A program made the translations under genes and the position numbers. 64,000 nt of DNA, from the IMG/VR virus record IMGVR_UViG_3300035698_014365, positions 1-64,000 of that record; one strand, given 5' to 3'. Position 1 is the stretch's first letter, and every line of letters begins with the position of its first letter. The notes under the pieces are model-generated. The model had not been told where the DNA came from. It ran no database searches and saw only the letters and a program-made list of their open reading frames with translations. The stretch is from a virus. Shown one piece after another: positions 1-49,573 of the stretch.

Positions 1-2
1 AC

Positions 3-137
3 ACAGAGGTTCCATGGTGCAATTCTGGGGGCGTAATGAGAGCGGGCCACGCCGAAGACTGCCGATGCCTAAAGTGCCACAGAGAACACAAGGGAGCATT
101 CGTGCCCACCCCAACAGGAGAGAGTGATGAAGTGTAG
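3..137 (+). CDS. Partial (5'-truncated) Cys/His-rich cassette protein ending ...CRCLKCH...TPTGESDEV*
   Basis: Open frame from the window start through repeat B (108-127) to TAG at 135-137; same C-terminal peptide as the downstream cassettes. Confidence 0.6.
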   Translation, partial: TEVPWCNSGGVMRAGHAEDCRCLKCHREHKGAFVPTPTGESDEV

Positions 138-336
138 AAACTATCTGTGTGTCGGCTTCTATGGAGCCAGCAATGAGGTGTGTGGTATGTCTGGCCGTGC
201 CGTTCGCAACTGCAAACACCGCAAGGATTTCGAGCGCATCGTTCGCGCTGGCCATGGGATGCAGTCGGAGTCCAATGCAGACGAAGCCCGTGGTGGGCAA
301 TTTATGATGGAGTTAACCCGTTCCAAGGAGAAGTAG
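127..336 (+). CDS. Small Cys-rich hypothetical protein (cassette)
   Basis: ATG directly after the SD in repeat B; four Cys in the N-terminal half. Confidence 0.65.
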   Translation: MKCRNYLCVGFYGASNEVCGMSGRAVRNCKHRKDFERIVRAGHGMQSESNADEARGGQFMMELTRSKEK

Positions 337-338
337 TT

Positions 339-626
339 ATGAGCAAGAAAATCGAGTATGTGGTAGAGGTTCGCGTATCGGCAGAAGAAGACGGACAGGC
401 GATTGCGTTCGTCAAGGCAGTACAGAAGTGGTGTGAGGATGAAGAACAGACGCTGGTGGAGACATCGGGCGTCTCGCTGGGGCCATGGCCGCGCGACTCA
501 GAAACCTTGAGCGACGGACAGATAAAGAAGCGGGCCGCCAAGCTGCTCCAGCGGCACAGTGCCTACTCCATCGGCGACTGTGATGTGGCCATTGCCGAAA
601 TCAACGGCATTGTGTCGGCCGCCTAG
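339..626 (+). CDS. Hypothetical protein (MSKKIEY...)
   Basis: AAGGAG SD upstream of ATG 339; abuts the previous stop. Confidence 0.7.
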   Translation: MSKKIEYVVEVRVSAEEDGQAIAFVKAVQKWCEDEEQTLVETSGVSLGPWPRDSETLSDGQIKKRAAKLLQRHSAYSIGDCDVAIAEINGIVSAA

Positions 627-631
627 CAAAC

Positions 632-744
632 GGGTGACGTTTAGGGTGGCGTGGACTGTCCAGTAGCCTGGAATGTGGCCGAAAGGCTAGGAGCAACATG
701 TATCGCGGCGTAGCGTCCGCGCAGAAAGCACCACCCTGTCACCT
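632..744 (+). ncRNA. Candidate multi-stem structured RNA in the intergenic gap
   Basis: GGTGAC(633-638)/GTCACC(738-743) and AGGGTGG(643-649)/CCACCCT(731-737) close the region; inner hairpins CCAG-tagc-CTGG, GCC-GAAA-GGC and CGCGG...CCGCG. Confidence 0.5.
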
Positions 745-771
745 AACCACCCCAACAGGAGAGAGTGACAC

Positions 772-1026
772 ATGAACAAGACTGAATGGATAACAGAGAG
801 AACCCGCATCATATCTGACATGCTGGACAACCCAGACGAGAACGGTATCTACCCCACCACCAAGTGCTACGAAGAGCTTGACGCGCTCTACGACGCCATA
901 GCCCCCACCGCTACGACTGAGGGGGAGACTTGCGACAACTGTGGACGCGGTGACTGTCGGTTTGCGCGCCCGAACGAGGGGACCTCTTGTCGCTACTACA
1001 CCCCAACAGGAGATGACAATGGCTGA
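772..1026 (+). CDS. Two-module cassette protein: N-module + PTATTEG + Cys-rich module
   Basis: Starts after repeat B (749), contains repeat A, ends in repeat B. Confidence 0.8.
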   Translation: MNKTEWITERTRIISDMLDNPDENGIYPTTKCYEELDALYDAIAPTATTEGETCDNCGRGDCRFARPNEGTSCRYYTPTGDDNG

Positions 1027-1528
1027 ACTGAGCGAGGCATACGAACAGCAAGTGGGGGAGTCTGCCACGTATCGCAAGCTATCCAGCACCTACCACACGC
1101 TCAGATATGTGCGGTGGTTGGAGGCCATTGCCACACCCCTGATGAAAAGTAAGGAATGCCCGCATTGTGGTGGTGATGGGAAGTTCATGGACAAGGGGGA
1201 GTCGTACCCCTGCACGCTTTGCGAGGGCTCTGGCCGCGTCATGGCCGTTGAGAGCCGCACCCCCACCGCTACGACTGAGGGGTGGGTGGCAGTGGAGGAC
1301 GGGCTGCCACACGACGATATGTGGTGTGCCCTTCTCAACCACGGGAATCAGAGAATGCTTGGGTGGTGGAATGCCACGCACGAATGTTGGTGCTACCGGG
1401 GCAGATGGCGCCAAGGAATAGCGGCGTGGCTCCCATTGCCAGAGGCACCACCAGAAGCGGTCTGTGGTGAATGCGGACAGCGACTCCCCGACGCCCCGCC
1501 CCCAACAGGAGAGAGTGACAATGGCTGA
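1019..1528 (+). CDS. Multi-module cassette protein: N-module, DnaJ-type zinc finger (CxxCxGxG x2), linker A, DUF551-like domain, CxxC
   Basis: CPHCGGDG/CTLCEGSG motifs; WVAVEDGLP...AWLPLPEAP fits the DUF551/Eaa pattern; start ATG lies in repeat B. Confidence 0.8.
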   Translation: MAELSEAYEQQVGESATYRKLSSTYHTLRYVRWLEAIATPLMKSKECPHCGGDGKFMDKGESYPCTLCEGSGRVMAVESRTPTATTEGWVAVEDGLPHDDMWCALLNHGNQRMLGWWNATHECWCYRGRWRQGIAAWLPLPEAPPEAVCGECGQRLPDAPPPTGESDNG

Positions 1529-1784
1529 ACAAGAGACGGTGATTGAAATACTTGAGGACTACGCCGACACGCGGGACAGGTGGAACACCGTGCCCAACAA
1601 GTACCCAGACCCCAGCGCATTCAACGAGCGAATTAGGGCCGTGTTCCGCACCCCCGCCGCTACGACTGAGGGGTGTGAGGGGTGTGACAGCATCGGCTCA
1701 ATCGTATTTTGCCCGCCATGTGAACGCTACCCCAAGAAGCGCATCGACTGCTTCACCCCAACAGGAGAGAGTGACAATGGCTGA
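1521..1784 (+). CDS. Two-module cassette protein with C-terminal CxxC..CxxC module
   Basis: ATG in repeat B, internal repeat A, ends TPTGESDNG. Confidence 0.8.
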   Translation: MAEQETVIEILEDYADTRDRWNTVPNKYPDPSAFNERIRAVFRTPAATTEGCEGCDSIGSIVFCPPCERYPKKRIDCFTPTGESDNG

Positions 1785-2043
1785 ACGATACCTAACACAC
1801 GGGAAGGTGGTGTGGGATACCAAGAAGGGGCCAGCCAACCCCCTCTGCAAGTGCGAACAGGAAGAGGTGAGCCGCCATATAGCCAAGGCCCTCAACGAAT
1901 CCGAGACAGTGCTGGCACTTATGGACGAACTCGAAGAGCGCAACACCTACGGGGCCAAGTACCACATTGGGAGTATCCAAGAGGTAATCGACGCCATCCG
2001 TGCCGCACTTGCCACCCCAACAGGAGAGAGTGACAATGGATAG
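1777..2043 (+). CDS. Cassette protein (MAERY...HIAKALN...)
   Basis: Bounded by repeat B at both ends. Confidence 0.8.
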   Translation: MAERYLTHGKVVWDTKKGPANPLCKCEQEEVSRHIAKALNESETVLALMDELEERNTYGAKYHIGSIQEVIDAIRAALATPTGESDNG

Positions 2044-2347
2044 CACAGACGGTTGCACATGCCAGTCATGTGGTAGAACTTACAAGGTTGACCTGCTGGT
2101 TTCCGATGAATTGTGGAAACGGATTAGGCCAGCGGGCAAGGCTGAAGGCGCTGGAATGCTTTGTGGTGGCTGCATGGTGTTACGCATTGAGGGGCTAGGG
2201 ATGTTCGGTGTGTATCGTGTTGGCGCTGTCAAAAAGGAGTGCGATGGGTGCGGGCGGGACCCGTTCAACGCCCTCTGTGATAAGTGTGACAGGCTGCCGC
2301 GTCCCGACCATTTCATCACCCCAACAGGGGAGAGTGACAATGGCTGA
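2036..2347 (+). CDS. Cassette protein with two Cys4 zinc-binding modules
   Basis: CQSC...LCGGC and CDGC...CDKC; bounded by repeat B. Confidence 0.8.
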   Translation: MDSTDGCTCQSCGRTYKVDLLVSDELWKRIRPAGKAEGAGMLCGGCMVLRIEGLGMFGVYRVGAVKKECDGCGRDPFNALCDKCDRLPRPDHFITPTGESDNG

Positions 2348-2642
2348 TAGGTACGAAGTAGACAAAGAGAGCTGCGACAGTTGGTGTGTGTGTGACACGA
2401 CCACCCCAGTGGGTAAGCCAGATATTTGGTGCCACTCTTCCAGCGAGACGCACGCTCACCGCATAGCTAAGGCTCTCAACGCCACCCCCACCGCTACGAC
2501 TGAGGGGTGTGAACACACGTGGCAAACGCCCATGTTCAAGGTTGAGCGTTGCAGAGACTGCGGTAAGCTCCGCGAATTGGCGTACCCCCCAACAGGAGAG
2601 AGTGGCAAGGGTGGCGCGAACGAGGGGAAAGGAGTAGATTAG
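2340..2642 (+). CDS. Two-module cassette protein (MADRY...RIAKALN + linker A + CxH..CxxC)
   Basis: ATG in repeat B, internal repeat A, degenerate repeat B near the end. Confidence 0.8.
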   Translation: MADRYEVDKESCDSWCVCDTTTPVGKPDIWCHSSSETHAHRIAKALNATPTATTEGCEHTWQTPMFKVERCRDCGKLRELAYPPTGESGKGGANEGKGVD

Positions 2643-2748
2643 TGCAGAGCCTGGAAACTCCGAATACAATAGGGTTGGCCCAGTCCATTAAACGAGTGCG
2701 ATATCTTCCAGGCTCTCGTACTCGGCCCTTATTGTGTGGGCCTGGAGG
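2641..2748 (+). promoter_or_regulatory. Structured leader upstream of the HNH gene
   Basis: Perfect 11-bp inverted repeat AGAGCCTGGAA(2646-2656)/TTCCAGGCTCT(2706-2716), then a GGCCC/GGGCC hairpin next to the GGAGG SD. Confidence 0.5.
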
Positions 2749-2752
2749 AGTT

Positions 2753-3241
2753 GTGGAAACGAAGTATTGTCCCGGGTGTAAAACGACAAAGCCCACCACC
2801 GCGTTTTCCAAGTCGCGGGGGCGCTACGATGGCCTACAGGGCTGGTGTAAGGCGTGCAAGGTCGAGCAGCAGCGGTCCACGCCAGAAAAGAGGCGGGTGT
2901 GGGACGCGGACTACCGGCGCAACAACCCCGAGAGCATCCACGAATCAAACACCCGCTGGGCACACAAGCCAGAGGTTATGAAAAGGAGGCGCGCGCGTGG
3001 TTTGGCGCGAATGAGGAGAGAGCGCTGGACGCCGGCCGCAGTGGCACGGCAAAGAGTGAGAAAGGCGTGCCGAAGAGGAGAGCTTGTGCGCCCCGAAATC
3101 TGTTCGCGATGCGGCAGGGCGCCCGTGAGGGGAACAATCCATGCCCACCACGAAGACTACGGCAAGCCACTGGAGGTGGTGTGGGTGTGCCAAAAATGTC
3201 ACACAGCAATTCACATATTAAAGGAGGGGCTGAATGAATGA
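2753..3241 (+). CDS. HNH endonuclease with N-terminal zinc finger
   Basis: CPGC...WCKAC and CSRC...IHAHHEDYGKPLEVVWVCQKCH; GGAGG before GTG 2753. Confidence 0.85.
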   Translation: METKYCPGCKTTKPTTAFSKSRGRYDGLQGWCKACKVEQQRSTPEKRRVWDADYRRNNPESIHESNTRWAHKPEVMKRRRARGLARMRRERWTPAAVARQRVRKACRRGELVRPEICSRCGRAPVRGTIHAHHEDYGKPLEVVWVCQKCHTAIHILKEGLNE

Positions 3242-4391
3242 TGCACCGATGGTAGTCGAACAGAGCGCGATGGAGATTGCCAACCGCGCTGATATTGAGA
3301 TGCAAATTTCCACAGCGCGCAAGTATCCGCGCAGCGTGCAAAAGGCGTCGCAGGCCATCGTTACCATGGCCACGATGGATGAAGACACCGCCGCCGCGTG
3401 CGGATACGTTATTCCTCGGGACGGGAAGGAGATCGACGGCCCCTCTGTGCGCTTGGCAGAGATAGCCGCCAGTCAGTGGGGCAATATGCGCATCAAAAGC
3501 TACGTGGTGGATATTGGACAGAAGTTTGTTACGGCAGAGGGCGTCGCCCATGACTTGGAGAGCAATATGGCATATTCAATTCAGGTCCGACGCCGCATCA
3601 CGAAGAGTAGCGGCCAGCGGTACAGTGACGACATGATTATGACGACCGCGAACGCTGCGTGTTCAGTAGCATTCCGCGAAGTTACGTTCAAGGCGATCCC
3701 GCGGGCCTATGTCAACAAAGCGTACCATGCGGCGCGCCGCATTGCCGTCGGCGACGAGTCCAAGCTCCCCGAACGCCGCGAGAAGATGCTCAAGCGCTTT
3801 GCTGTTCACGGCGTGACCTCGGTAATGATCCTACAGTTCGTCGCGCGTCCGTCTATCGAGGAGGTCGGACTCGCAGACCTGCAGAGATTAATGGGTGTGT
3901 ACACTGCGGTGGCAGACGGTGACGTATCTGTCCGAGAAGTTTTTGGCGGTCAGAAGTCAGAGCCGAAACCTGCTCCCGCTCCAAAATCAGAACCGGCCCC
4001 TGCGGCAGTGAAGCCTGAGCCTGTTGAGGCTGCTGCTCCGGCTGAGCAGAAGGAAGAGGTCCCTGCTGCTGCGCCACCGCCTGCCGAGGAAAAGCCCAAG
4101 GGGCGCGGCCGGCCCAAGGGTGCCAAGAATAAGGCAAAGGCTGAGCCCACTCCTCCTGCACAGGAAGAGGCACCTGTTGAGCCTGCACCCAAACAGGAAG
4201 CTCCCGCTGGCCAGTCTCCTCAGCAGGAATATGAGACCCTTCTGCTCCAGCTTGAGACACAGGGCAAGGGTGAGCAGTTGAGCACGGTGATGCAGCAGTC
4301 CGTCAAGGTGCTGGATAAAACCATCGACGAGTTCACTGACGACGACTACGTGCAGGTCAACGCCGAACTGAGGAAGGCTCTCAATGGGTGA
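3234..4391 (+). CDS. Putative single-strand annealing/recombination protein with a long Pro/Ala/Glu tail
   Basis: Phage-type N-terminus (ARKYPRS...GPSVRLAE...WGN); adjacent to an exonuclease; low-complexity C-terminus. Confidence 0.55.
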   Translation: MNDAPMVVEQSAMEIANRADIEMQISTARKYPRSVQKASQAIVTMATMDEDTAAACGYVIPRDGKEIDGPSVRLAEIAASQWGNMRIKSYVVDIGQKFVTAEGVAHDLESNMAYSIQVRRRITKSSGQRYSDDMIMTTANAACSVAFREVTFKAIPRAYVNKAYHAARRIAVGDESKLPERREKMLKRFAVHGVTSVMILQFVARPSIEEVGLADLQRLMGVYTAVADGDVSVREVFGGQKSEPKPAPAPKSEPAPAAVKPEPVEAAAPAEQKEEVPAAAPPPAEEKPKGRGRPKGAKNKAKAEPTPPAQEEAPVEPAPKQEAPAGQSPQQEYETLLLQLETQGKGEQLSTVMQQSVKVLDKTIDEFTDDDYVQVNAELRKALNG

Positions 4392-5484
4392 GAACAAACA
4401 CGACTTGTTGGGTCCATCGAGCCTTGGTCTTCGCCACCTCTGCCCTGGGAGCGCTAATCTCCAACGCCAGAAGGAGGTTCCGGAGGAGGAAGAGTCCTCT
4501 GCTGCGGCCACTCGAGGAAGTGCGCTTCACAAATTGGCCGCGGATGCCCTTGGCGATGTGGATATCACCATATCGTTGGCGGCTATTGAGCAGGGTGATG
4601 TCAACGCGGTCAACTGGTGTGTCGAGCAGTGCCGCGAAATCCACAAGGACTTCCCGGGTATACTGAAAACCGAGCAGGAAATCTCGCTGAAGGATGTTGG
4701 CATAGAAAAAGGCACTATCGATGTGCTGATTGTCCAGCCCGGGGAAGGCGTCACTGTCATTGACCACAAATTTGGCATGATGGAGGTGCCACCACCTGAG
4801 TACAACTGGCAGATGAAGGCGTATGCATGGGCCGCGCGCAATAAATACGGTGGCGAGTCCGTGTCTGCTGTCATTCTCCAGCCAGAGCTCGAGCCGTCGC
4901 GCAGGTTCAAGGAACACACGTTCTCAGCGGAGGATATGGCCGCTATCGGCAAGGAAATAGCCGACACTGTGGACAGGTGCAATGCAGAGGACTCGCCGCT
5001 CGTCAAGGGCTGGTGGTGCACAGGCATGTTCTGCAAGTGCACTGACGTGTGCCCGCTGTGGATGAATGCCGTACTTGGGCTGCCACAGCACCTCGATATC
5101 ACCCAACACCTCGACACCCTTGAGCCAGACAAGCGTACGGACCTCTACGACACGCTGGTTGCGGCCAACAAGTGGAGCGAGAAGGCTATCGCCAAGTGTC
5201 AGGCGTGGATACATGGGGGTGGACACGTGCCCGGGTATGAGATACGGGACGGCAGAAAGTCCCGCGTGTGGGGTGACGCAGACGTTGCAGGCCCCGCACT
5301 CAGGGAAATGGCTGTGGACATGGGGGTGAACCCGGACGATCTGTTCGAGCCGGAGCACCTGAAGTCTATTGCCAAGGTCGAGGGAGTTGTTGGAACCTCA
5401 GATGCCGTTGCCGAGAAACTGTCGCCACTCATTCTCCACGTGCCAGGTAAGCCCGTTATCAGGCCCGCGCGCAAGAAAAAGTGA
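4384..5484 (+). CDS. DUF2800-family PD-(D/E)XK, Cas4-like exonuclease
   Basis: HxLLGPSS..CPGS, GSALH, GTID, VIDHKFG, QMKAYA and a C-terminal Cys cluster. Confidence 0.85.
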   Translation: MGENKHDLLGPSSLGLRHLCPGSANLQRQKEVPEEEESSAAATRGSALHKLAADALGDVDITISLAAIEQGDVNAVNWCVEQCREIHKDFPGILKTEQEISLKDVGIEKGTIDVLIVQPGEGVTVIDHKFGMMEVPPPEYNWQMKAYAWAARNKYGGESVSAVILQPELEPSRRFKEHTFSAEDMAAIGKEIADTVDRCNAEDSPLVKGWWCTGMFCKCTDVCPLWMNAVLGLPQHLDITQHLDTLEPDKRTDLYDTLVAANKWSEKAIAKCQAWIHGGGHVPGYEIRDGRKSRVWGDADVAGPALREMAVDMGVNPDDLFEPEHLKSIAKVEGVVGTSDAVAEKLSPLILHVPGKPVIRPARKKK

Positions 5485-5882
5485 CACGGCTCCCGCAATC
5501 CAATGGCACCGCCGGCGAGGACATGGCCCTGCACTGGGCCAAGCAACATGGCTGGCGGCTTTTCCGTCACCAGCCACCGACGAAGGTGGTGTACATAGAG
5601 AAGCGGGCGGTCACCATCCAGTGTAAGTCGGGTGGCATTTCAGACTTCACGGGGTATCGCCCGAGATTAATTAACATGTACGTTGCGGTCGAGGCCAAGG
5701 AGGCGACGGGCAAGACCATGATGTGCAGCAGGCTCGACAAGGATCAGCGGGACTGGATGAGCCGTCTGCCACCAGGCTGTGCGTACGTTGCCATCGCGTG
5801 GATGGATGGCGGTAACCCGTGGTGTGAGGTACACCCATTTAAGTACAAGGGCTCCTACAAACGAAACGAGGGCACGAAGTGA
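5481..5882 (+). CDS. PD-(D/E)XK nuclease, RecU-like Holliday junction resolvase
   Basis: SDFTG...VAVEAK motif followed by Q..WM. Confidence 0.7.
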   Translation: MTRLPQSNGTAGEDMALHWAKQHGWRLFRHQPPTKVVYIEKRAVTIQCKSGGISDFTGYRPRLINMYVAVEAKEATGKTMMCSRLDKDQRDWMSRLPPGCAYVAIAWMDGGNPWCEVHPFKYKGSYKRNEGTK

Positions 5883-6130
5883 GCATCGAAGAACTCGTGA
5901 TTATACACGCCAAGACTAAGGTGGGCCATTTAAACCGCCAAATTCACACACAAAGGGGCTTCATTAAGCATCTTGAGGAGGAGAAAGAGGTGCTGGCGGT
6001 CGAGAATAAGCGCCTGCGGCATCGGATAACAGGCTACAAAGGCGCCATCTCCGTGTTCAGGACCAAGCTGGCGGCCGGGGTGGGCATTGTCATGGCCACA
6101 GTCCTTCCGGGCGATTTCTTGCCCCTTTAG
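5879..6130 (+). CDS. Hypothetical coiled-coil protein
   Basis: GTGA overlap with the upstream gene; heptad-like segment. Confidence 0.55.
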   Translation: MSIEELVIIHAKTKVGHLNRQIHTQRGFIKHLEEEKEVLAVENKRLRHRITGYKGAISVFRTKLAAGVGIVMATVLPGDFLPL

Positions 6131-46980: not shown

Positions 46981-47733
46981 TTAGGTGAACTTCGTATTCT
47001 CTCGGGTAATACCTTCCCGCTTGAGTTGTTTGATGCGCTTCTTGAACTGCTTCTTCAGTTCCGCGTTCTTCTTCTCGTCCAGCCGGCGAACCTTGTGCAT
47101 CTGGCCCTCGTGCTTCCGATAACGCGCCACCACCTTCTTGAGCTTGTAATCCTTCACGAGCTTCGGTAGCGGGCTGTCAGGGTGCACGCCCAGCCGATAG
47201 ATAAATTCCTTGTCCCCCATCGACCTCAGTGCCTCGTAGTACAGCCCAAACCTGTCGTACACTGAGCGGCGCCACATGCGTCCCTGCGCGTGGCAGAAAG
47301 TTTTTTTGTTTACACCGCGGAAGTCGTCGCCACCGTACCAACGGTCTGCGTAGCCATGGACAAGGTCAACCTCCGGGTGTTCGTCAAATATGCGCACGGC
47401 ATCTTCCAGCGCATTCGGTGTTAAGACGTCGTCGGCGTCTATCAGGCGGATGAATTCTCCCTGAGATGCGAGTATTCCGGTGTTCTTGGCGGTGTTGTAG
47501 CCAAAATTCCTTGGGTGCTCTATAATGTGAAAGCGCCCACGGGGCTTGCCTGTGTCGGCAACGCTGTAGTAGAGCATGTACGAGCCAATTTCATCGAGTT
47601 CTTCCGGGCGGCTCCCATCATCAACGATAATGCACTCAAAGTCCTCGAACGCCTGCGCCTCAATACTCTCAAGGCAGTCGTCCAAATAAGTGGCATAATT
47701 GAAATGGGGCACCACGATCGATACCCTAGGCAT
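46981..47733 (-). CDS. GT-A (GT2) glycosyltransferase
   Basis: VSIVVPHFN, IIVDDGS, AKNTGI, LIDADD. Confidence 0.95.
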   Translation of the reverse strand: MPRVSIVVPHFNYATYLDDCLESIEAQAFEDFECIIVDDGSRPEELDEIGSYMLYYSVADTGKPRGRFHIIEHPRNFGYNTAKNTGILASQGEFIRLIDADDVLTPNALEDAVRIFDEHPEVDLVHGYADRWYGGDDFRGVNKKTFCHAQGRMWRRSVYDRFGLYYEALRSMGDKEFIYRLGVHPDSPLPKLVKDYKLKKVVARYRKHEGQMHKVRRLDEKKNAELKKQFKKRIKQLKREGITRENTKFT

Positions 47734-48948: not shown

Positions 48949-49573
48949 TCTTCCTCCTGCCAATAACGTCCGCGAACCTCTTTTCAAGGCCCCAGTGCAC
49001 CTCACACTCAAACCCGGCCTCCTCCAGCCACGTAATAACGGTGCTGTTCTTCTCGAAATGCTGGGAGTTGTGCTCGCGCCAGTCCTTCCCCTTCTTGCGA
49101 TTGGTGCGTTCCTTCGTGCGGTTCTGGATAATCACGAGGCTGCAGTGCGGAAGAATGTGCTCTGCCACTGCGGCGAGCTCTTTGTTGGACAGGTGGTACA
49201 GGACAAAGCTGGCGTACATGGCGTTCACCTTGGCTTCCCGCTGCCCCTTGCGTATCTCCCTGCAGAAGTCCTTGGTTGACATCTTGAGAAACTCGACGTT
49301 TTGATTGAACTTCTCGATGTGCTGTGCCGTGACCTGTGCCTGCCCCATGTATCTGTCTGAGAGGTCGATGCCAATCACACTCTTGGCGTAGTGAGCCACC
49401 TCCCACACGTACAGGCCGGCGTTGCAGCCTATCTCCAGCACGTCCATGCCCTCAAACAGGGGGGCAAACTGGGAAAAGAACCTCAGCCTGATGTCGAGCC
49501 TGGGCCAGCGCTGGTAGGCTTTCTCTTTCCACTTTGCCGCGATTTTATCGTACTTATCCTTTGTGAGTTTCAT
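48542..49573 (-). CDS. Class I SAM-dependent methyltransferase with an overlapping acidic tail
   Basis: DVLEIGCNAG, GIDLS, FVLYHL. Confidence 0.85.
   Translation of the reverse strand: MKLTKDKYDKIAAKWKEKAYQRWPRLDIRLRFFSQFAPLFEGMDVLEIGCNAGLYVWEVAHYAKSVIGIDLSDRYMGQAQVTAQHIEKFNQNVEFLKMSTKDFCREIRKGQREAKVNAMYASFVLYHLSNKELAAVAEHILPHCSLVIIQNRTKERTNRKKGKDWREHNSQHFEKNSTVITWLEEAGFECEVHWGLEKRFADVIGRRKNEDSGDTDGDKEVEGEGSAGRDTPELGQGRPDQGSAQPAVDAAGRDGEGSPEGDDGSVLPVQEGQGDEGVCPAPGVQGVQEESPDEGLEEPSADGGGGDNPEGNKNSPRKARSPRPRKKKVGEGVGNKDGARPLS

What the first reader, a model, noticed from the sequence alone, without database searches (positions are those of the whole stretch)
1..2642. Gene-cassette array joined by two in-frame DNA repeats: candidate two-level domain-shuffling system
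Seen: eight copies of repeat B (CCCCAACAGGAGAGAGTGACAATGG) sit at or near gene junctions. Each writes the same C-terminal peptide (PTGES, usually PTGESDNG*) on the upstream gene, and all but the last provide the SD and ATG of the next gene, mostly as an 8-nt overlap. Four copies of repeat A (CCCCCACCGCTACGACTGAGGGG) sit inside genes, always in frame as PTATTEG, and separate unrelated N-terminal modules from unrelated C-terminal modules (three Cys-rich modules, one DUF551-like). Synonymous positions in A are invariant, while the 1650 copy has a non-synonymous change, which points to constraint at the DNA level. Inference: B x B recombination adds, drops or reorders whole expression-ready genes, and A x A recombination swaps protein halves in frame. 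That would be an integron-like combinatorial library without an integrase, possibly driven by the phage annealing protein and exonuclease encoded just downstream (3234-5484). The array continues past the left window edge.
Basis: partly seen in the sequence, partly recalled or inferred. Interest (0 to 1): 0.85.

Follow-up and report, generated by a model that had tools for sequence, protein, structure and literature searches.

The report
Phage gene array shuffled at two joints
A salt-lake phage builds about 14 small early genes from interchangeable pieces joined by two 25-base DNA sequences, and related DNA from nature carries the same joints with different pieces on either side, so both whole genes and gene halves are swapped there.

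Summary
The record is a complete 76.7-kb phage genome, and the array runs from 74,796 (just after dnaB) across the record ends to window 2,642. It holds 14 genes, about 14 copies of B and 10-11 of A, all on one strand and found nowhere else in the genome.

B is a DNA/RNA-level ribosome-binding and start junction. It also occurs in non-coding gaps and in all three reading frames. A is always in frame (PTATTEG) with invariant codons.

Five metagenome contigs share nothing with the array except A and B, which are 100% identical. Homology between those contigs breaks exactly at B five times. In one relative a four-gene A/B array sits inside the glycan operon.

Natural A-joint recombinants exist:
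- g14 N-half + g11 C-half
- a foreign N-half + g14 C-half (two contigs)
- g1 N-half without its zinc module
- g2 and g5 sharing one A-to-B block

The genome has no integrase. The downstream genes encode a Rad52-like annealing protein (fold match) and a PD-(D/E)XK exonuclease. The repeat lengths (22-33 nt) match the 23-27 bp minimum reported for Red-beta-type recombination.

The enzyme and any selection for evolvability are inferred. The scan has noted similar junction repeats before, in other phages.

The parts
1..137 (+). 3' end of cassette gene g6 (starts at 76,368 of the record; N-module, A, Cys/His module, B tail PTGESDEV*)
109..133 (+). B copy (variant GTGATGAAG); supplies the SD and ATG (127) of g7
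127..336 (+). g7, 69 aa, Cys-rich, no A and no B at its end
339..626 (+). g8, 95 aa, ordinary SD, no A or B
627..771 (+). non-coding gap that ends in a B copy (750-774, variant CACATG)
772..1026 (+). g9: N-module, A (902-924), Cys module, B variant with a 3-nt deletion (1001-1022, PTGDDNG*)
1019..1528 (+). g10: DnaJ-type CXXCXGXG zinc module, A (1260-1282), weakly DUF551-like module, B (1500-1524)
1521..1784 (+). g11: N-module, A (1651-1673, one non-synonymous change), Cys module, B (1756-1780). The C-module recurs joined to the g14 N-module in P0145.
1777..2043 (+). g12: no A. Its N-part (HIAKALN) is distantly related to the g14 N-module. Ends in B (2015-2039).
2036..2347 (+). g13: two Cys modules, no A, ends in B (2319-2343)
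2340..2642 (+). g14: N-module, A (2485-2507), Cys module, last and degenerate B (2587-2611, no ATG). The C-module recurs joined to a foreign N-module in P0151 and P0153.
2642..3241 (+). g15, HNH / endonuclease VII-like nuclease that closes the array
   Evidence: phrog_2340, E 9e-31
3234..4391 (+). candidate single-strand annealing protein with a Rad52-like fold in residues ~20-170 and a low-complexity tail
4384..5484 (+). PD-(D/E)XK exonuclease (DUF2800, phrog_69)

Best explanation
The array is a hyperplastic early region of small accessory genes, mostly zinc-ribbon proteins, written in a fixed grammar: B-[N-module]-A-[C-module]-B.

B (about 23-33 nt, cACCCCAACAGGAGAGAGTGACA + ATGG) is first of all a standard translation junction. 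It carries the Shine-Dalgarno sequence, the start codon of the next gene and usually the stop of the previous one. A (about 25 nt, caCCCCCACCGCTACGACTGAGGGG) is a fixed in-frame linker between protein halves.

Both sequences are letter-identical in unrelated genes and in different phage genomes. They are therefore islands of perfect homology just long enough for annealing-type homologous recombination. Exchange at B adds, drops, duplicates or replaces whole expression-ready genes, and can place cassettes in another operon. Exchange at A re-pairs N- and C-halves in frame.

Shown here: the anatomy, the DNA-level conservation across otherwise unrelated sequence, mosaic breakpoints at B and at A in natural sequences, and the absence of a site-specific recombinase.

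Inferred: that the phage's own Rad52-like annealing protein (3234-4391) and PD-(D/E)XK exonuclease (4384-5484) catalyse the exchanges, and that the joints persist partly because shuffling pays off. The cassette proteins may be host-takeover or counter-defence factors, but their functions are unknown.
For: 1. Counts far above chance, one strand only, confined to the array.
2. B also occurs in non-coding DNA and in all three frames: g4 PPQQERVTHG*, L030 YPNRRE*, L027 ...AEGGE*. So it is a nucleic-acid element.
3. All 14 copies of A (10 in G000 and 4 in other contigs) are in one frame with identical codons. The only variants are non-synonymous: T->A at 1651, P->S at 75,772, P->A at 75,880.
4. The repeats are sharply bounded, with no conservation outside about 25 nt.
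5. Contigs L027-L031 share no other nucleotide or protein similarity with the array, yet carry A and B at 100% identity.
6. Breakpoints at B: L027/L030, L027/L031 (two), L028/L027, and G000/L029 at the left edge of the first B.
7. B x B joint: the last 113 nt of L031 repeat its own 861-973, which is a tandem duplication or a circle of a 909-nt two-gene unit.
8. A four-gene A/B array in L027 lies between homologues (35-60% aa) of two G000 glycan-operon genes that abut at about 48,950.
9. Breakpoints at A: g2/g5 share 133 nt at 95.5% that begin at A and end 10 nt past B. P0145 = g14 N (100%) + g11 C (100%). P0151 and P0153 (two contigs) = an N-half about 82% like P0147/L030 + g14 C (100%). P0147 has that N type with another C. 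P0123 (two contigs) = g1 N (124/127 identical) ending PTATTE-AEK. Other g1 homologues are stand-alone 115-140 aa proteins.
10. No Phage_integrase or Resolvase domain in the complete genome.
11. The 3234-4043 model (pLDDT 90) has its 12 best structural matches all in Rad52, Mgm101, Sak and Red-beta (Z 5.5-8.2), next to a DUF2800 exonuclease.
12. The minimal efficient pairing segment is reported as 23-27 bp for Red-beta and 31-34 bp for RecA (PMC3945230). This matches the repeat lengths.
13. Neighbouring non-cassette genes in the same operon use ordinary, varied ribosome-binding sites. The 25-nt conservation of B is therefore not needed for translation as such.
Against: - All recombinant forms come from short-read metagenome assemblies. 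P0145, the L028 joint and the L031 end joint each rest on a single contig, and a chimeric join at a 22-33-nt repeat cannot be excluded for those.
The A-level crossovers are therefore read from protein only.
- Contigs from four other salt-lake runs show the same G000 order with no differences and no true structural variant. Shuffling is thus not frequent on the scale of one population, although depth was only 2-5.
- B has an obvious first-order role in translation, so its conservation does not need a recombination function.
- No first-order function of A is excluded, for example a pause site or a protein-binding site.
- The annealing-protein assignment rests on fold similarity at middling Z, without a sequence-family match.
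Confidence: 0.7

Rival explanations
1. Expression signals only. B is a start-associated translation signal kept for uniform, coupled translation or for a trans-acting factor. A is a linker or an RNA-level signal such as a ribosome pause at the domain border. Exchanges at them are rare accidents with no bearing on why the sequences are kept.
For: B contains AGGAG 8-10 nt before the ATG and sits in unstructured RNA (z -0.1 to -0.5). It resembles the cluster K SAS in position and orientation (PMC3203893). A ends in the SD-like GAGGGG. Near-identical strains keep the same order.
Against: Other genes of the same operon do without B. Only about 6 nt of B pair with rRNA, yet about 23 nt are invariant. 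A is held in one frame in 14 of 14 copies, although a second frame is also open. Breakpoints coincide with the repeats in more than 8 independent comparisons. The reading does not explain why the letters are identical in phages whose shared proteins are only 35-60% identical.
Confidence: 0.2
2. A dedicated site-specific system. An unrecognised nuclease or recombinase, for example the HNH/endonuclease VII-like g15 at the end of the array, cuts or nicks A and B and so drives cassette movement. This would resemble homing or integron-type exchange.
For: The g15 nuclease lies directly after the last B. The repeats are sharply bounded and asymmetric, like recognition sites. Cassettes occur in a second operon in a relative.
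Against: No integrase or resolvase is present. A and B are not palindromic and give no hairpin signal. Crossovers fall within the repeats, as simple homologous exchange predicts. Nothing links g15 to the sites.
Confidence: 0.07
3. Assembly artefact. The apparent reshuffling comes from chimeric joins of co-occurring strains at short repeats, and the real genomes all share one order.
For: Several joints rest on one short contig each (P0145 on 975 nt; L028; the L031 end). P0145 is 100% identical to G000 on both sides, as a chimera would be.
Against: g2 and g5 lie in one genome and differ at 6 of 133 positions. P0151 and P0153 are on two contigs and differ from each other. Their N-half is only about 82% like its nearest relative, while the C-half is identical to g14. 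L027 flanks are a different phage species (35-60% aa). The L029/L031 and L027/L031 joints recur in separate samples. The shared exact stretch between the g11 and g14 copies of A is 22 nt, which is below usual final k-mer sizes.
Confidence: 0.05

Closest known systems
PeSL (promoter-early stem-loop) cassettes of T4-type phages (Arbiol et al. 2010, PMC2839356; Comeau et al. 2014, PMC4122927)
   Same: Short conserved motifs repeated between small non-essential genes in hyperplastic regions. Indels and replacements between relatives are bounded by the motifs. Recombination between nearby copies gives circles or duplications, as the L031 joint suggests here.
   Different: PeSLs are transcription units (a sigma-70 promoter plus a terminator hairpin) in intergenic DNA. 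B is a translation junction that overlaps two coding regions, with no promoter, terminator or hairpin signal. PeSLs have no intragenic, in-frame counterpart of A.
Start-associated sequences (SAS/ESAS) of cluster K mycobacteriophages (Pope et al. 2011, PMC3203893)
   Same: An asymmetric repeat containing AGGAG a few bases before ATG. It has one orientation, occurs only among non-structural genes, and is conserved in front of genes of unrelated families.
   Different: The sequence is different (GGGATAGGAGCCC, 13 bp) and so is the phage group. A role in recombination was not proposed for SAS. SAS are not read as a shared C-terminal peptide, and there is no second in-frame repeat.
Short conserved boundary (linker) sequences of the modular theory of phage evolution (as cited in PMC3029335)
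   Same: Homologous recombination at short conserved sequences at module borders. This locus is a clear instance.
   Different: Such sequences are reported as not identifiable at most mosaic boundaries (PMC3029335). Here they are explicit and multi-copy, and they operate at two levels, between genes and inside genes.
Conserved glycine-rich motifs between hypervariable segments of T-even gp38 adhesins (Trojet et al. 2011, PMC3157838)
   Same: Conserved in-frame motifs separate interchangeable protein segments, and segments are exchanged between phages.
   Different: GRMs form the structural core of one protein family and are constrained at the protein level. A joins unrelated N- and C-modules in many different small genes and is constrained at the DNA level.
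Integron gene-cassette arrays
   Same: A one-directional array of promoterless, expression-ready cassettes bounded by a repeated site, with variable cassette content.
   Different: There is no integrase, no hairpin-forming attC-type site and no attI or Pc. Exchange is by homology, and cassettes can be re-cut internally at A.

Membership tests
PeSL cassettes (T4-type phages) | sigma-70-like early promoter in the motif | tested here: not met
   Promoter-like sites are not enriched (3 against 2.4 expected; 2 against 2.2 expected) and none recurs at B or A.
PeSL cassettes (T4-type phages) | stem-loop terminator in the motif | tested here: not met
   B regions fold no better than shuffles (z -0.1 and -0.5). 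There are no terminator-like sites at the repeats.
PeSL cassettes (T4-type phages) | indels and replacements between relatives are bounded by the motif; circle or duplication joints | tested here: met
   Breakpoints fall at B. L031 shows a B x B joint. Physical circles were not tested.
Start-associated sequences (cluster K mycobacteriophages) | asymmetric repeat with the AGGAG core 3-7 bp before the start codon, one orientation, non-structural genes only | tested here: met
   The spacing here is 8-10 nt from GGAG to ATG.
Start-associated sequences (cluster K mycobacteriophages) | consensus GGGATAGGAGCCC in cluster K actinophage genomes | tested here: not met
   B is cACCCCAACAGGAGAGAGTGACA. 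No phage record matched by blastn.
Integron | tyrosine-recombinase integrase (IntI) | tested here: not met
   PF00589 has no match in the complete genome, while the controls all matched. PF00239 is also absent.
Integron | attC sites: imperfect palindromes that fold as hairpins | tested here: not met
   A and B are asymmetric, with no fold signal.
Conserved boundary/linker sequences (modular theory) | the same short sequence at borders of unrelated modules in different genomes | tested here: met
   A and B are 100% identical in L027-L031, with no other similarity.
Conserved boundary/linker sequences (modular theory) | mosaic breakpoints coincide with the sequence | tested here: met
Rad52-superfamily single-strand annealing proteins (protein 3234-4391) | Rad52/Red-beta/Sak-type beta-beta-beta-alpha DNA-binding fold | tested here: inconclusive
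   The model has pLDDT 90. The top 12 structural matches are all Rad52, Mgm101, Sak or Red-beta, with Z 5.5-8.2 (rmsd 3.5-4.8 over 94-137 residues). Foldseek gave E 0.014-0.1 with probability 0.9-0.98. There is no Pfam or PDB sequence match.
Rad52-superfamily single-strand annealing proteins (protein 3234-4391) | ssDNA annealing activity, ring or filament assembly, partner exonuclease | not testable with these tools
   Only the adjacent PD-(D/E)XK exonuclease gene is seen.

The most novel reading that the evidence does not exclude
A and B are kept by selection for evolvability. Together with the phage's own Rad52-like annealing protein and exonuclease they would form a recombinase-free combinatorial system. 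It would continually re-pair N- and C-halves of small host-takeover or counter-defence proteins. It would also move expression-ready cassettes, possibly through small circles, into any B site, including sites in other operons and other phages of the same lakes.
Probability: 0.3. Interest if true: 0.85.

Novelty: new variant of a known kind. Interest (0 to 1): 0.72.

Why it matters
Phage genomes are mosaics, but the proposed mechanism of homologous exchange at short conserved linkers has few clear examples, because such linkers cannot be found at most mosaic borders (PMC3029335).

This locus shows explicit linkers at two levels, between genes and inside genes in frame. Natural recombinants exist at both levels, and a plausible phage-encoded recombination engine lies next door.

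It offers a directly testable case of domain shuffling by designed-looking microhomology. Recoding A synonymously should stop the shuffling without changing the proteins. It also suggests a natural template for building combinatorial protein libraries in phages.

Tried and rejected
- blastn of window 1-6000 against 50,697 phage records gave no match.
- Exact A and B words in IMG/VR gave only single-copy matches in unrelated contigs. One 59-kb record (G001) has two B-like copies and was not pursued.
- The search for related loci with DnaB found nothing. With the annealing protein it found one 41% relative without the repeats. With the g1 N-module it found three unrelated phages; L036 has no junction repeats.
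- Genome contigs holds no exact A or B, so there is no host or prophage lead.
- A word search with g5 found only g5 and g2.
The DNA behind P0145, P0151, P0153 and P0123 was therefore not seen.
- Contigs of four other salt-lake runs were laid on window 1-6000. Depth was 2-5. All joints and nearly all loose ends are cross-matches of the repeats to the other half of the same array. One is a single-base variant of g3 and one is an unknown module before A. No structural variant could be called either way.
- RNA folding of four A-to-B cassettes gave z near 0 in three and -2.9 in one, so there is no shared structure.
- Promoter and terminator scans showed no enrichment.
- The single-sequence fold of the annealing protein was useless (pLDDT 37) and was replaced by a model built on an alignment.
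- Pfam on the cassette proteins gave only sub-threshold zinc-ribbon, DnaJ-finger and DUF551 hints.
Full report
**What is there**

The window is the first 64 kb of a complete 76,709-bp IMG/VR virus record with a 95-bp terminal direct repeat. Public runs that hold it are salt-lake metagenomes. The B core occurs 8 times in the window against 0.06 expected, and A occurs 4 times against 0 expected, all on the + strand.

The array is about twice as large as reported. It starts 90 nt after the dnaB stop at 74,796, crosses the record ends and stops at window 2,642. It holds 14 cassette genes (g1-g14), about 14 B copies and 10-11 A copies. One gene, g3, chains three modules with three A-like copies. 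No copy of either repeat, even with five mismatches, lies anywhere else in the genome.

**Limits of the repeats**

An alignment of all copies with 40-nt flanks shows sharply bounded islands. A is caCCCCCACCGCTACGACTGAGGGG. B is cACCCCAACAGGAGAGAGTGACA followed by the start codon. There is no conservation outside them.

**B is a nucleic-acid element, not a peptide**

Most copies are read as PTGESDNG*. Two copies (74,796 and 750) lie in non-coding gaps. The copy at the end of g4 is read as PPQQERVTHG*. In related contigs B is read as YPNRRE* and ...GGE*.

B carries AGGAG 8-10 nt before the ATG and lies in RNA that folds no better than shuffles. It has no promoter or terminator signal. It is therefore a standard translation junction.

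Non-cassette genes in the same operon (g8, g15, the annealing protein, the exonuclease) use ordinary, varied ribosome-binding sites. Translation alone does not require 23 invariant letters.

**A is in frame and constrained at the DNA level**

All 14 copies seen (10 here and 4 in other contigs) are read as (T/A)PTATTEG with the same codons, although about 8,000 synonymous spellings exist. Every variant copy differs by a non-synonymous change: 1651 T->A, 75,772 P->S, 75,880 P->A. This is the opposite of what peptide-level selection would give.

**Relatives**

Phage records, IMG/VR and 185,579 prokaryote genomes gave nothing useful. One scan of JGI metagenome contigs with a 20-mer of B returned five contigs, L027-L031, from four assemblies, and these carry both A and B.

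Against the G000 array they share only the repeats, at 96-100% identity over 24-34 nt. The one exception is a 72-nt non-coding element upstream of the first B (92%), whose homology stops at the left edge of B. Their cassette proteins are unrelated to those of G000.

The flanks of L027, L028 and L030 encode 35-60% identical homologues of the G000 glycan-gene cluster at 48-54 kb. These contigs therefore come from a related but distinct phage lineage.

**Exchange at B**

Among those contigs, sequence switches from 95-100% identity to no similarity exactly at B:
- L027/L030: the left sides differ and the right sides are 100% identical over 610 nt.
- L027/L031: this happens at two B copies.
- L028/L027: the same upstream gene is followed by different downstream genes.

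The last 113 nt of L031 repeat its own positions 861-973. After the second gene of a two-gene unit, B leads back into the first gene. This is the joint of a tandem duplication or of a 909-nt circle.

In L027 a four-gene A/B array (1682-3087) is inserted between homologues of two genes that abut in G000 near 48,950. Both borders are B-type junctions. Cassettes therefore occur in another operon in a relative.

**Exchange at A**

Within G000, g2 and g5 have unrelated N-halves. They share a 133-nt block (95.5%) that begins at the first base of A and ends 10 nt past B. Five differences lie in the 15 nt after A, followed by 86 identical bases.

A profile of the A-zinc-B modules, searched against 1.84 billion representative proteins, found ten proteins at E <= 0.001, all but one of them small (71-142 aa):
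- P0145 is the g14 N-half joined to the g11 C-half, both 100% identical to G000.
- P0151 and P0153 lie on two contigs and differ by one residue. They are an N-half about 82% identical to that of P0147 (the L030 gene), joined through a degenerate A (TSPAMTEG) to the g14 C-half at 100%.
- P0147 carries that N type with a different C-half.

The N-half of g1 belongs to a family of stand-alone 115-140-aa proteins with invariant Cys, His and Asp residues. Its closest relative, P0123 (124 of 127 identical, two contigs), ends PTATTE-AEK where g1 continues into a zinc module.

**Mechanism**

The complete genome has no tyrosine or serine recombinase, and the sites are not palindromic. Homologous exchange is the simplest reading.

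Directly downstream lie three genes:
- an HNH / endonuclease VII-like gene (2642-3241);
- a protein of a large unannotated family (3234-4391; at least 243 relatives; phrog_3657);
- a DUF2800 PD-(D/E)XK exonuclease.

An AlphaFold model of the first 270 residues of the middle protein, built on 40 relatives, has pLDDT 90. Its twelve best structural matches are all Rad52, Mgm101, Sak or Red-beta, at Z 5.5-8.2. I read this as a Rad52-like annealing protein paired with an exonuclease, with moderate confidence.

The minimal efficient pairing segment is reported as 23-27 bp for Red-beta and 31-34 bp for RecA. Rad52-like phage recombinases dominate exchange on short or diverged homology (PMC3945230). 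The perfect stretches here are 22-33 nt. That the phage enzymes act on A and B is an inference.

**Caveats**

- All recombinants come from metagenome assemblies, and some rest on one contig (P0145, L028, the L031 end).
- Contigs from four other salt-lake runs reproduce the G000 order without differences. All apparent joints were repeat cross-matches to the other half of the array. The arrangement is stable within the sampled population at the low depth available.
- It cannot be decided by computation whether A and B are kept because they permit shuffling, or are kept for expression and permit it incidentally.

**Comparison with known systems**

The locus works like the PeSL cassettes of T4-type phages (PMC2839356, PMC4122927) and looks like the start-associated sequences of cluster K mycobacteriophages (PMC3203893). 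It is an explicit case of the conserved boundary sequences of the modular theory, which are reported as usually not identifiable (PMC3029335).

It is a member of none of the sequence-defined families. It has no promoter or terminator, its consensus differs, and it has no integrase.

The feature for which I found no published description is the second, intragenic level: a DNA-constrained in-frame linker that re-pairs unrelated protein halves. The nearest analogue is the set of conserved glycine-rich motifs of gp38 adhesins (PMC3157838), which are structural and belong to one protein family.

Earlier notes of this scan report similar junction repeats in other uncultured phages. I did not test those.

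**Verdict**

The enzyme and the adaptive rationale remain inferred. This is a new variant of a known kind.

Noticed in passing
G000 74,721-74,792 (beyond the window; L025:10721-10792) and L029:1-72: A non-coding element just upstream of the first B is 92% conserved between two phage lineages. It holds a hairpin with a GAAA loop (GGGCACAGAG-GAAA-CTCTGTGTGGG) and one compensatory pair change (CACAGAG/CTCTGTG against CGCAGAG/CTCTGCG). No T-run follows it.
   Followed up: partly
window 627-771: This is the only sizeable gap in the array. It also ends in a B copy of the CACATG type and contains a GGCC-GAAA-GGCT hairpin. It may be a second operon-internal RNA or regulatory element like the one before g1.
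   Followed up: no
window 3234-4391: The protein belongs to a large family (at least 243 relatives at E<=1e-5; phrog_3657 'unknown function'; no Pfam). It has a confident Rad52-like fold model and looks like an unannotated family of phage single-strand annealing proteins.
   Followed up: partly
G000 74,818-75,339 (g1; L025:10818-11336): The N-module (phrog_5845) is a widespread stand-alone phage protein of 115-140 aa with invariant Cys16, His73, His86, Asp98 and His100. This could be a Cys/His peptidase-like enzyme. In G000 it is extended by A plus a zinc module.
   Followed up: partly
L027 (rc 2202-2774), L029:1142-1849, L031 (rc 878-1498): One cassette gene (MKTIEAW...) carries an Ala/Gly/Ser/Trp tandem repeat (AAAGSAAW...) whose length differs between contigs (191, 207 and more than 236 aa).
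   Followed up: no
L027 (rc 1682-3087) against window ~48,950 (- strand): A four-gene A/B cassette array sits inside the glycan-gene operon of a related phage, between homologues of two genes that abut in this genome.
   Followed up: yes
A (e.g. window 2483-2507) against B (e.g. window 1498-1522): A and B align without gaps at 14 of 25 positions (CACCCCnACnG....GAnTGA; about 5e-4 by a simple binomial). Both begin with T-P-T when translated. A may be a derivative of B, which would make it a fused former gene border.
   Followed up: partly
G001 (IMG/VR record of L024) 47,075-47,344, - strand: An unrelated 59-kb viral contig has two copies of a B-like start junction (CCACCAACACCAACAGGAGAGAGTGA) in a run of small zinc-ribbon genes.
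   Followed up: partly
window 2642-3241: An HNH / endonuclease VII-like gene (phrog_2340, E 9e-31) lies directly after the last, degenerate B copy. No link to the repeats could be tested.
   Followed up: no
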